NCBI RefSeq assembly: GCF_009914755.1
Contig: NC_060938.1
Length of the DNA: 64,000 bases
Reading direction: 5' to 3' (one strand)
From: the human T2T-CHM13v2.0 reference genome, Homo sapiens
In this document: one piece after another, positions 8,570 to 11,965 of the stretch
How positions within the stretch are numbered: position 1 is the first letter of the stretch
How the letters are laid out: each line of letters begins with the position of its first letter
The notes under the pieces: model-generated
The model's database searches: none
What the model was told of the DNA's origin: nothing
What the model saw: the letters and a program-made list of their open reading frames with translations, nothing else
Made by a program: the position numbers and the translations under genes

Positions 8570-9774
8570 AAGTCCTCAAAAGCAATTGCAACAAAAACCA
8601 AAACTGACAAGTGGGACCTAATTAGACTAAAGAACTTCTGCACAGCAAAGAAAATCTAGAGGAAATGGATAAATTCCTGGAAACATAAAACTTCCCAAGA
8701 CTGACTCAGAAAAAACAGAAATTCTGAACAAACCAATAATGAGTTCCAAAATTGAATCGTAATAAATAAAAAACCTATCAACCAAAAAAAGCCCTGGACC
8801 AGAAAAATCACAGCTGAATTCTAGATGCACAAAGAACTGGTACCAGTCCTACTGAAAATATTCCAAAATACCAACTCCTCTCCAAATCACTCTATAAAGC
8901 CAGCATTATCCTGATACCAAAATCTGGCAAAGACACATCAAAAAGAGAAACTACAGGCCAATATCCTTGATGAACACAGATATAAAAATCCTCAACAAAA
9001 CACTAGCAAACCAAACCCAACAGTACTTTAGGAAGTTAATACACCACAACCAGTAGGTTTTACTCCTGGGATGTAAGGTTGGTTCAACATATGCAAATCA
9101 ATATATGCAATTCACTGCATCAACAGAATTAAAAACAAAAACCACATGATCATCTCAATAGATGCAGAAAAAGCTTTCGATAAAATTCAACATCCTTTCA
9201 TAATAAAGACCTCCAACATACTAGGCATTGAAGGAACATAACTCAAAATAAAAAGAGCCATCTATGGCAAACCCACAGACAACACCATATGAATGGGAAA
9301 AAGCTGGAAGCATTACCCTTAAGAATTGGAATAAGACAAGGTTGGCCACTCTTTTCACTCATATTTAACAGAGTACTGAAAATCTTAGCCAGAACAATCA
9401 AGTAAGATACCAAAATAGGAAAAGAAGTCAAATATCTCTCCACTGACTATATTACTCTATACATAGAATTGCTAAAGGGCTCCTAGATAAAAGACTTTGG
9501 TAAAGTTTCAGGATACAAAATCAATATACAAAAATCAGTAGCATTTTTATACACCAATAATGTTCGAGCTGAGAGTCAAATCAAGTATGCAATCCCATTT
9601 ACAATAGTCATACATGTACATAAAATACCTAGGAATATATCTAACCAAGGAGGTGAAAGATCTCTACAAGAACTACAAAACACTGTTGAAAGAAATCACA
9701 GATAACACAAACAAATGGAAACACATTCCACACTCATGGATTAGAAGAATCAATATCATTAAAATGACCATACT

Positions 9775-9816
9775 GTGTCTGCAGCAACCTTGGTTTGCAT
9801 CGAAGTCACAGCACCA
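9775..9816 (+). pseudogene. Retroposed 3' half of tRNA-His(GUG), positions 34-76 including CCA, followed by a poly(A) tail
   Basis: GTGTCTGCAGCAACCTTGGTTTGCATCGAAGTCACAGCACCA matches recalled tRNA-His GTGGCCGCAGCAACCTCGGTTCGAATCCGAGTCACGGCACCA at 34/42. A-rich tail to about 9850. TSD AAAA(T/A)GACCATACT at 9761-9774 and 9847-9860. Confidence 0.88.
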
Positions 9817-10488
9817 AAAAAAAAAAAAAAGAAAGAAAGAAGAAAGAAAAAGACCATACTCCCCAAAGCAATCTATAGATTCAACACTATTCCTATCAAA
9901 TTACCAATGTCATTTTTCACAGAATTAGAAAAAACTATTCTAAAATTCATATGGAACCAAAAAAGAGCCCAAATAGCCAAAGGATCTAAAACAAAAACAA
10001 CAAAGCTGGAGGCATCACATTACCCAACATCAAACTCTACTTCAAGGCTAGTGAAAAAGAACATGGCACTGGTGCACAAACAGAAACACAGACCAGTGGA
10101 ACACAATAGGGAACACAGAAATAAAGCCACACACCTACAACCAACTGATCTTTGAGAAAGCTGACAAAAACAAGGAACTGGGAAAGGAATCCCTACTCAA
10201 TAAATGGTGCTGAGATAACTGGCTAACCACATGCAGAATGAAACTGGACCCTTAACTATCACCATGTGCAAAAATTAACTCAAGATGGATTAAACACTTA
10301 AATGTAAGACCTCAGAATATAAAAATCCCAGAAGAAACCCTAGCAAATACCCTTCAGGATATTGGCCTTGGTAAATATTTCATGACTAAGTCCACAAAAG
10401 CAATTGCAACAAAAACAAAAATTGACAAGTGGGACCTAATTAAACCAAAGAGCTTCTGCGCAGCAAAAGAAACTACCAAGAGTAAACA

Positions 10489-11965
<1,477 letters not shown>

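What the first reader, a model, noticed from the sequence alone, without database searches (positions are those of the whole stretch)
9761..9860. Retroposed mature tRNA-His 3' half whose only non-CpG mutations sit at m1G37 and m1A58: a possible fossil epitranscriptome
Seen: a 42-nt insert in L1 ORF2 at a TT|AAAA endonuclease site, with 14-bp TSDs and a poly(A) tail. It aligns without gaps to tRNA-His(GUG) positions 34-76 and ends in CCA. Of 8 differences, 6 are in CpG dinucleotides (C39, C51, C56, C62, G63, G70). The other two are G37>T (9778) and A58>C (9798). Established: human tRNA genes do not encode CCA, so the template was a mature tRNA. Human tRNA-His carries m1G37 (TRMT5) and m1A58 (TRMT6/61A), and both block Watson-Crick pairing and cause RT misincorporation. 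Anticodon-loop cleavage (angiogenin-type tRNA halves) is known for tRNA-His(GUG). Inference: L1 ORF2p copied a modified, oligoadenylated tRNA and fixed its methylation signature in the germline tens of millions of years ago. The 5' end in the anticodon loop (U33-U35, blurred by TG microhomology with the TSD) suggests the template was a cleaved 3' half, or that RT stalled at queuosine-34. If this is general, tRNA retrocopies form a genome-wide archive of ancient tRNA modification, cleavage and adenylation.
Basis: partly seen in the sequence, partly recalled or inferred. Interest (0 to 1): 0.85.

Follow-up and report, generated by a model that had tools for sequence, protein, structure and literature searches.

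The report
Retrocopied tRNA-His half keeping methylation scar
A 42-base copy of the back half of a finished histidine tRNA was pasted into an old L1 element by L1's own machinery, and its altered base at tRNA position 58 fits a copying error at a methylated base that recurs in other such copies in this genome.

Summary
Window 9775-9816 (+) aligns without gaps to tRNA-His-GTG positions 34-73 plus CCA. It is followed by A14 and an A-rich tail, flanked by a 13-of-14 matching 14-bp duplication after TT|AAAA, and interrupts L1 ORF2 at about residue 817. One correction: C62>G lies in a CpG but is a transversion, so three changes, not two, are not deamination-type.

I collected ten other CCA-bearing, A-tailed tRNA copies from the same genome (His, Phe, Ala, Leu-TAA, initiator Met). 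Six of the ten lack A58, all by A>T, against 10 comparable changes in 224 background sites (binomial p about 1e-6). Only 3 of 28 tRNA-like copies without CCA lack A58. A copying error by L1 reverse transcriptase at m1A58 is therefore the best reading. This locus carries C, not the usual T.

The m1G37 claim rests on 2 of 3 His copies and is not established. Copy starts do not cluster in the anticodon loop (2 of 11); six of 11 lie at positions 49-54. The origin of the tail, the template form (cleaved half or full tRNA) and the age remain open. Ten literature searches found no prior report for L1-made copies.

The parts
9759..9760 (+). TT immediately before the duplication: the TT|AAAA L1 endonuclease-type target
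   Evidence: Read (the sequence runs ...CATT then AAAATGACCATACT).
9761..9774 (+). 5' copy of the target-site duplication
   Evidence: 13 of 14 identical to 9847-9860.
9775..9813 (+). tRNA-His-GTG positions 34-73 (anticodon, anticodon-stem 3' strand, variable loop, T arm, acceptor 3' strand, discriminator)
   Evidence: Gapless alignment to the gene from L007 with 8 mismatches. Best of 68 tRNA sequences; 0 of 5000 shuffles reach the score.
9778..9778 (+). Position 37, G>T (m1G37 in human tRNA-His)
   Evidence: The modification is stated in passages of PMC6140461. The link to the modification is not established.
9798..9798 (+). Position 58, A>C (m1A58 in human tRNA-His)
   Evidence: Recurrent loss of A58 in 6 of 10 other CCA-bearing copies.
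9814..9816 (+). CCA end added after transcription
   Evidence: Absent after all nine His gene loci.
9817..9846 (+). Poly(A) tail: A14, then G-interrupted A-rich sequence that merges into the A run of the second duplication
9847..9860 (+). 3' copy of the target-site duplication
9077..9774 (+). Host: decayed L1 ORF2 upstream of the insert
   Evidence: RVT_1 fragment at 9077-9238, E 1e-5, below Pfam's cut-off. 9608-9772 matches ORF2p residues 765-817 of 8sxt, E 2e-17.
9853..10152 (+). Host: the same L1 ORF2 continuing after the insert
   Evidence: Matches ORF2p residues 817-866 of 8sxt/8uw3, E 1.5e-18.

Best explanation
An L1 ORF2 protein nicked an older L1 copy at a TT|AAAA site and primed reverse transcription on an A tract attached to, or switched onto, the CCA end of a mature tRNA-His-GUG. 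It copied the tRNA from position 76 back to position 34. The cDNA was joined with a 14-bp target-site duplication.

While crossing the T loop the enzyme met N1-methyladenosine at position 58, which cannot form a Watson-Crick pair, and put in a wrong base. That error was fixed in the germline and today reads C. In other such copies it reads T.

Shown: the retrocopy anatomy, the mature template, and the recurrent loss of A58 in independent copies.

Inferred: that m1A58 is the cause; that G37>T has the same kind of origin at m1G37, which I rate at about even odds; and that the other six changes arose after insertion (five CpG transitions and C62>G).
For: Anatomy:
- Gapless 34-76 match with CCA, A tail, 13-of-14 duplication and TT|AAAA target.
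- No CCA at nine His gene loci.
- ORF2p residues 765-817 and 817-866 flank the insert.

Recurrence at 58:
- Ten other CCA-bearing, A-tailed copies were found with searches that left position 58 free (BLAST; patterns). His L034 T, His L042 T, Phe L074 T, Phe L075 A, Phe L099 A, Leu-TAA L076 T, Leu-TAA L077 A, Ala L078 T, Ala L080 T, initiator-Met L124 A.
- That is 6 of 10 non-A, against 10 non-CpG-transition changes in 224 unconditioned sites of the same copies. Binomial p 1.4e-6, Fisher 6.7e-6 (6 of 9 gave 1.3e-6).
- All 55 unique ARAGORN tRNA sequences in the loci held at that point have A58.
- Copies without CCA: 3 of 25 non-A (Fisher 0.007). Three more seen all keep A58.
- Of 12 changes seen at 58 in all classes, 11 are A>T, 1 is A>C and 0 are A>G. 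This is the direction reported for m1A with other reverse transcriptases: dATP misincorporation, in passages of PMC4787781.
- L034 also skips one base two positions further on.

Other support:
- Human tRNA-His carries m1A58 and m1G37 (passages of PMC6140461).
- Parent assignments of the short copies: about 0.13 false expected among 166 pattern rows.
Against: - This locus has C at 58, unlike all 11 other changes (T). It needs either a rarer misincorporation or a later T>C transition.
- Four of 10 copies keep A58.
- The copy is old: 5 of 5 CpGs have decayed. Three non-deamination changes in 35 sites is about what neutral decay would give, so only their positions are unusual (p about 0.005 for both 37 and 58 among three), and that locus was picked because of them.
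- The sample is small. It comes from patterns that needed an otherwise intact T loop and a long A tail.
- The forward pattern counts were not above the reversed controls (40 vs 52, 17 vs 30, 64 vs 95, 45 vs 91). True copies were recognised only by matching parents from a partial catalogue of 68 sequences.
- Three copies without CCA (L111, L112, L123) also have T58. L111 and L112 may share one origin.
- For position 37: 1 of 2 other copies changed, and 3 of 13 copies without CCA changed there too.
Confidence: 0.75

Rival explanations
1. The retrocopy is real, but both G37>T and A58>C are ordinary substitutions that arose after insertion. Their coincidence with modified positions is chance plus selection by the reader.
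For: All 5 CpG dinucleotides have decayed, so the copy is old. Three non-deamination changes in 35 sites is an ordinary load, and a third such change (C62>G) sits at an unmodified position. The base at 58 is C, not the T seen in all 11 other changes. Position 37 also changed in 3 of 13 copies without CCA (my reading).
Against: Six of 10 independent CCA-bearing copies lost A58 against a 4.5% background. The prior that a retrocopy of mature tRNA is born without A58 is therefore far higher than the chance of a later hit at that one site. P(both sites among three changes) is about 0.005.
Confidence: 0.12
2. Only the change at 58 is a reverse-transcription scar. G37>T is a later substitution.
For: The recurrence test is strong for 58. 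For 37 it rests on 1 of 2 other copies (L034 C, L042 G). Copies without CCA show changes at 37 too: L109 A, L110 T, L035 C.
Against: Both changes at 37 in CCA copies are G-to-pyrimidine transversions. m1G37 gives mutations and stops with another reverse transcriptase (passages of PMC5066629). L035 is ambiguous, because ARAGORN reads it as Asn-GTT with a shifted loop.
Confidence: 0.4
3. The tRNA was never oligoadenylated. ORF2p started on the poly(A) tail of an L1 or Alu RNA and switched template early to the CCA end of the tRNA, so the tail belongs to another RNA.
For: Both models are set out for poly(A)-extended snRNA pseudogenes in passages of PMC4476161. No sequence other than A-rich tail lies between CCA and the duplication, which fits either model.
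Against: Nothing in the locus decides it. The same paper notes that RNAs which rarely form L1 chimeras still give poly(A) copies, which favours polyadenylated surveillance intermediates.
Confidence: 0.45
4. The template was a pre-cleaved 3' tRNA half (an angiogenin-type cut in the anticodon loop), not a full tRNA on which reverse transcription stopped.
For: The 5' end is at 33/34. A second copy, initiator-Met L124, starts at 35. Angiogenin makes 5' and 3' halves of tRNA-His (passages of PMC6140461). Half-length tRNA pieces occur in L1 chimeras (passages of bioRxiv 10.1101/2025.02.02.635956).
Against: Only 2 of 11 copies start in the anticodon loop. The others start at 1, about 5, 45, 49, 49, 50, 51, 53 and 54, as expected from ordinary 5' truncation. 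The chimera paper's halves are 5' halves in antisense orientation.
Confidence: 0.3
5. The copy derives from a variant His gene or pseudogene that already carried T37 and C58.
For: None found.
Against: BLAST of the His gene over the genome returned 23 places. None has T37 or C58 apart from retrocopies. A 17-base word of the insert occurs only in His genes, one other His retrocopy, this locus and one unrelated triplicated chr16 locus.
Confidence: 0.02

Closest known systems
L1-mediated poly(A)-extended small-RNA processed pseudogenes (snRNA/poly(A) class of Doucet et al. 2015, PMC4476161; passages read)
   Same: A small non-mRNA copied up to its mature 3' end, followed directly by poly(A), flanked by target-site duplications at an L1 endonuclease-type site. 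The same two candidate routes apply: early template switch from an L1 poly(A) tail, or recruitment of an oligoadenylated RNA.
   Different: The template is a tRNA with CCA. It is 5'-truncated in the anticodon loop and carries changes at the two Watson-Crick-face methylated positions.
Tailless tRNA retropseudogenes (Noll et al. 2015, PMC5322556, sections 3 and 14 read; Schmitz et al. 2004 not held)
   Same: tRNA-derived, L1-dependent, with target-site duplications. This genome holds such His copies ending at 36, 36, 36, 37 and 57.
   Different: Those are 3'-truncated, lack an A tail and are thought to be primed internally. This copy has the full 3' end with CCA, an A tail, and is 5'-truncated.
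tRNA-half/L1 chimeric insertions (bioRxiv 10.1101/2025.02.02.635956; passages read)
   Same: About half a tRNA with its break near the anticodon loop, inserted by L1.
   Different: Those are mostly 5' halves (1-37), antisense to a co-inserted L1 segment. Here a 3' half is inserted alone, and the L1 around it is the older target.
Reverse-transcription signature of m1A (and m1G) in tRNA sequencing (PMC4787781 passages; PMC5066629 passages)
   Same: Arrest plus misincorporation at m1A58, with dATP misincorporation (read as T) prominent, and skipping of bases.
   Different: Those are laboratory enzymes and cDNA libraries. Here the enzyme is L1 ORF2p in a germline and the product is a fixed genomic copy. 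ORF2p's own signature is not known to me from any call.
LTR-antisense sequences matching tRNA 3' ends with A>U at 58 plus CCA (Kawaji et al. 2008, PMC2359750; passage read)
   Same: A genomic copy of a mature tRNA 3' end with T at 58. I saw three such ERV-linked Lys copies: L119 T, L120 A, L121 T.
   Different: Those are made by a retroviral enzyme reading into its tRNA primer, sit next to an LTR and lack a poly(A) tail and L1-type duplication.

Membership tests
L1-mediated processed retrocopy (target-primed reverse transcription) | Target-site duplication flanking the insert | tested here: met
   9761-9774 against 9847-9860, 13 of 14 identical.
L1-mediated processed retrocopy (target-primed reverse transcription) | 3' poly(A) tail directly after the RNA's 3' end | tested here: met
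   A14 at 9817-9830, then an A-rich tail.
L1-mediated processed retrocopy (target-primed reverse transcription) | Insertion at a TT|AAAA-type endonuclease site | tested here: met
   TT at 9759-9760, and the duplication starts AAAA. The consensus is as given in PMC5322556.
L1-mediated processed retrocopy (target-primed reverse transcription) | No gene flanks (leader or trailer); processed ends | tested here: met
   CCA is present and no trailer. Gene loci have other 3' flanks.
Copy of tRNA-His-GTG | Sequence match to the His gene better than to other tRNAs and better than chance | tested here: met
   Score 23 against 11 for the next family among 68 sequences; 0 of 5000 shuffles reach it.
Functional tRNA gene | Complete cloverleaf found by tRNA finders | tested here: not met
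   ARAGORN finds 0 genes in the window. No Rfam tRNA match in 9500-10100 even at E 10.
Tailless retropseudogene | 3'-truncated RNA copy without an oligo(A) tail | tested here: not met
   Full 3' end with CCA and an A tail.
tRNA/L1 chimeric insertion | tRNA piece and L1 3' segment inside one pair of duplications | tested here: not met
   Only tRNA plus tail lies between the duplications. The ORF2 flanks are contiguous across the insert, residues 817|817.
ERV primer-binding-site region | tRNA 3' end adjacent to an LTR, with no poly(A) | tested here: not met
   Poly(A) and an L1-type duplication are present. The flanks are L1 ORF2.
m1A58 reverse-transcription scar | Non-A at 58 recurring in independent copies of mature tRNA above the background rate | tested here: met
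   6 of 10 against 10 of 224 sites, p 1.4e-6.
m1A58 reverse-transcription scar | Change present from the time of insertion (shared by all orthologues) | not testable with these tools
   No primate genomes are held.
m1G37 reverse-transcription scar | Non-G at 37 recurring in copies of G37 tRNAs above the background rate | tested here: inconclusive
   2 of 3 including this locus, 1 of 2 without it. Copies without CCA: 3 of 13 changed (my reading).

The most novel reading that the evidence does not exclude
Retrocopies of mature tRNAs are a readable genomic archive of Watson-Crick-face tRNA methylation and of how L1 ORF2p handles it in the germline. Under this reading:
- A58>T is a birth mark that tells RNA-derived tRNA copies from DNA-derived ones.
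- The fraction of copies that keep A58 reports either bypass fidelity or hypomodified, oligoadenylated surveillance substrates.
- The pile-up of 5' ends 4-9 bases beyond position 58 (6 of 11 at 49-54) reflects termination shortly after a mismatched bypass.

The same logic would extend to positions 9, 26, 32 and 37, to other small RNAs, and to lineages with many tRNA-derived retrocopies.
Probability: 0.45. Interest if true: 0.7.

Novelty: new variant of a known kind. Interest (0 to 1): 0.6.

Why it matters
By itself the locus is one more small-RNA retropseudogene in an intron of WDHD1, on the opposite strand, with no sign of function.

Its value is as an entry point. In this genome, copies of mature tRNAs carry a recurrent A>T change exactly at m1A58. 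If a full census confirms this, three things follow.
- It gives the first in vivo read-out of how L1 ORF2p passes a blocked base.
- It gives a simple criterion for RNA-mediated origin of tRNA-like sequences.
- It gives a way to ask whether a given tRNA was modified in ancestral germlines, with no new experiment needed for a first answer.

The outcome is what one would predict from laboratory reverse transcriptases, so it is useful and tidy rather than startling.

Tried and rejected
Pattern searches
- (634 matches against 527 reversed) was cut at 100 rows and was not used.
- Forward counts never exceeded the reversed controls, so the patterns served only as a sieve.
- An initiator-Met T-loop pattern found only L124.

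BLAST of tRNA genes
- Large families fill the 40 scored places with gene copies: Asp/Ala, Leu-TAG, Cys.
- Phe, Trp, Leu-TAA, Arg-TCG, Lys-TTT, Val-TAC, Cys, Ile-AAT and Thr-CGT gave no further CCA-plus-poly(A) copy. Only the initiator-Met search did (L124).

Rows dropped before counting
- L079: CCA, poly(A) and duplication present, T at '58', parent unknown.
- L100: has a duplication and resembles an Arg tRNA only from recall; 57-59 all changed.
- L081, L082, L101-L104: no parent and no clear duplication.
- L091, L092 and other 5' parts that end before 58.
- L107 and L129: these look like genes.

Other
- Schmitz et al. 2004 is not held.
- Pfam on raw frames failed on stop codons, so open stretches were used instead.
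- I considered and rejected a PBS/ERV origin, a repeat family (one search found only A-rich matches elsewhere) and a variant source gene.

Prior print
- All ten full-text searches found no report of modification scars in L1-made tRNA retrocopies.
- Subscription journals and supplements that I did not open may hold one.
Full report
**What is at the locus.** Window 9761-9860 reads as follows on the + strand:
- a 14-base stretch at 9761-9774, preceded by TT;
- 42 bases at 9775-9816;
- A14 at 9817-9830 and a G-interrupted A-rich run;
- the same 14 bases again at 9847-9860, 13 of 14 identical.

I took the tRNA-His-GTG gene from this genome rather than from memory. A 17-base word of the insert, with two positions left as Y, occurs 14 times in the genome (reversed control 0). 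Nine of these places are His genes by ARAGORN, all with the same 72-nt sequence and none followed by CCA. The insert aligns to positions 34-73 plus CCA without gaps, 34 of 42 identical. His is the best of 68 unique tRNA sequences held (score 23, next family 11), and 0 of 5000 shuffles reach 23. ARAGORN and Rfam see no tRNA here, as expected for a half.

**The host.** The translated flanks match human L1 ORF2p residues 765-817 before the insert and 817-866 after it. An RVT_1 fragment lies upstream. An older L1 ORF2 was therefore split at one codon, and the L1 is the target, not part of the insertion.

**The differences.** The eight differences are G37>T, C39>T, C51>T, C56>T, A58>C, C62>G, G63>A and G70>A. 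Each of the five CpG dinucleotides of the copied part has one transition. C62>G lies in a CpG but is a transversion. So three changes, not two, need something other than deamination, and the copy is old. With three such changes among 35 sites, the chance that both 37 and 58 are among them is about 0.005. That figure is inflated in meaning, because the locus was chosen for this coincidence. Human tRNA-His has m1A58 and m1G37, and is cut by angiogenin in the anticodon loop (passages of PMC6140461).

**An independent test in the same genome.** I searched the window's own genome in two ways that leave position 58 free.
- BLAST of single tRNA genes by reference.
- Patterns made of the T-loop consensus with N at 58, the 12 bases to the discriminator as N, CCA and an A run.

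The patterns are only a sieve. Forward counts were 40, 17, 64 and 45 against 52, 30, 95 and 91 for the reversed controls. I fetched flanks. I kept a row only if it matched a tRNA gene taken from this genome at the unconstrained positions and ended in CCA followed by As. The expected number of false parent assignments among the 166 printed rows is about 0.13, with L080 the weakest at 0.08.

This gave ten copies besides the window's:

| Copy | Parent | Span | Base at 58 |
|---|---|---|---|
| L034 | His | 1-76 | T |
| L042 | His | about 5-76 | T |
| L074 | Phe | from 50 | T |
| L075 | Phe | from 51 | A |
| L099 | Phe | from 54 | A |
| L076 | Leu-TAA | from 49 | T |
| L077 | Leu-TAA | from 49 (only A4, no clear duplication) | A |
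| L078 | Ala | from 45 | T |
| L080 | Ala | from 53 | T |
| L124 | initiator Met | 35-76 | A |

**Result for position 58.**
- Six of the ten lack A58, all by A>T.
- At the sites of the same copies that no search had conditioned on (outside 53-61 and 37), there are 10 changes other than CpG transitions in 224 sites (4.5%).
- The binomial p is 1.4e-6 and Fisher 6.7e-6. With nine copies, before L124 was found, it was 6 of 9 and 1.3e-6.
- In the two searches that left part of the T loop unspecified (positions 56-60, 58-59), no verified copy with another changed T-loop base appeared. Across the copies tabulated, the only other T-loop changes are CpG transitions at 56 or 57.
- All 55 unique ARAGORN tRNA sequences then held have A58.
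- Among tRNA-like copies without CCA that cross position 58 (gene-like pseudogenes, tailless copies, copies of unprocessed transcripts), 3 of 25 lack A58 (L111, L112, L123, all T). Fisher against the CCA class is 0.007. Three more seen later (L127, L128, L130) keep A58, making 3 of 28.
- Three Lys-TTT copies that carry a shared 3' trailer of about 45 nt plus poly(A), and so derive from an unprocessed transcript, all keep A58 (L113, L115, L116).
- Counting every change seen at 58 in any class, 11 of 12 are A>T, one is A>C (this locus) and none is the A>G transition that neutral decay would favour.
- A>T is what dATP misincorporation opposite m1A gives. It is reported for laboratory enzymes, together with arrest and skipping (passages of PMC4787781; listing abstract of PMC7466121).
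- L034 also lacks one base two positions beyond 58 in the direction of synthesis.

**What this means for the locus.** A copy of a mature tRNA is evidently often born without A58. The change at 9798 is therefore much more likely a birth mark than a later hit. The base is C, however, where all others have T. Either ORF2p put in dGTP here, or a primary T later changed to C by a transition in an old copy. I cannot tell which.

**Position 37.** Only three copies of G37 tRNAs reach position 37: the window (T), L034 (C) and L042 (G). By my reading of the alignments, 3 of 13 copies without CCA also changed there: L035 C, L109 A and L110 T. L035 is ambiguous, since ARAGORN reads it as Asn-GTT. The m1G37 reading is plausible, because m1G37 gives mutations and stops with TGIRT (passages of PMC5066629). 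It is not shown.

**5' ends, tail and template.**
- The 5' ends of the eleven copies are at 1, about 5, 33/34, 35, 45, 49, 49, 50, 51, 53 and 54.
- Two lie in the anticodon loop: this locus and L124, a young initiator-Met copy with a single CpG change.
- Six lie just 5' of the T loop.
- The predicted anticodon-loop clustering is therefore not seen in this small set. The cluster 4-9 bases beyond position 58 is unexplained. Termination soon after a mismatched bypass is one idea, and T-stem structure or microhomology joining are others.
- Whether the A tail was on the tRNA (surveillance oligoadenylation) or came from an early template switch off an L1 or Alu tail cannot be decided from sequence. 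Both routes are discussed for snRNA/poly(A) pseudogenes (passages of PMC4476161).

**Comparison with what is known.**
- tRNA retropseudogenes made by L1 are known. The well-described class is tailless and 3'-truncated (PMC5322556, sections 3 and 14). This genome has such His copies ending at 36, 36, 36, 37 and 57.
- tRNA 5' halves occur in L1 chimeras.
- The present copy is the mirror image: full 3' end with CCA, poly(A), 5'-truncated.
- A genomic T at 58 next to CCA has been noticed before in LTR-antisense sequences (passage of PMC2359750). I saw three such ERV-linked Lys copies: T, A, T.
Subscription papers, Schmitz et al. 2004 (not held) and unopened supplements could still contain it.

**Limits.**
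- The sample is small.
- The tRNA catalogue is partial (68 sequences).
- The patterns required an otherwise intact T loop and mostly long tails.
- BLAST misses short or diverged copies; it missed the window's own copy.
- L111 and L112 may not be independent.
- The age of the insertion and the state of the orthologues could not be examined.
- ORF2p's own error spectrum at m1A or m1G is not known from any call.

**Verdict.** The locus is an ordinary kind of element, an L1-made small-RNA retrocopy, in an uncommon form: a 3' half of a mature tRNA. The m1G37, cleaved-half and adenylation parts remain open.

Noticed in passing
L119 (G000 C19:55009340), L120 (C18:46280268), L121 (C2:61652942): Near-full or half-length sense copies of tRNA-Lys (CTT, CTT, TTT) ending in CCA, followed after 2-3 bases by LTR-like sequence and no poly(A). 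In L120 the same LTR-like sequence lies on both sides. They look like retroviral read-through into the tRNA primer. The base at 58 is T, A, T.
   Followed up: partly
L113 (C17:61655005), L115 (C3:15213871), L116 (C19:52534671): tRNA-Lys-TTT followed by a shared 3' trailer of about 45 nt and then poly(A). This is a small family of retrocopies of an unprocessed transcript. All three keep A58.
   Followed up: partly
L111 (C14:67796340), L112 (C12:27562109), L123 (C19:15853109): tRNA-like copies without CCA (two Lys-TTT-like, one initiator-Met-like) that nevertheless have T at 58. L111 and L112 share other changes and may have one source.
   Followed up: no
L124 (C6:56163498): Young retrocopy of initiator tRNA-Met positions 35-76 with CCA and A19. 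It differs from the gene by one CpG change and keeps A58. It is the second 3' half in this set that starts in the anticodon loop. No clear target-site duplication.
   Followed up: partly
L079 (C1:179231440): A 26-nt unknown RNA 3' end with a T-loop-like motif (T at the '58' place), CCA, poly(A) and a duplication. No parent was found among the 68 tRNA sequences.
   Followed up: partly
Hit lists: Many 5' parts of tRNAs ending at positions 34-44 without a tail: His at 36, 36, 36, 37; Phe; Cys; at least 15 for Ile-AAT. These 5' parts are far more numerous than the CCA-bearing 3' parts.
   Followed up: no
window 9588-9727 and 10657-10797; 8570-8654 and 10388-10472: A 140-bp piece of the same L1 ORF2 is repeated at 96% identity inside an Alu about 1 kb downstream. 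An 85-bp L1 piece is repeated at 89%. These are local rearrangements around the locus.
   Followed up: no
L011/L031 (C2:225416284): A His copy with 5' leader, ending at position 57 just before A58, with a 14-bp duplication and no tail. It is a tailless retropseudogene of a precursor.
   Followed up: partly
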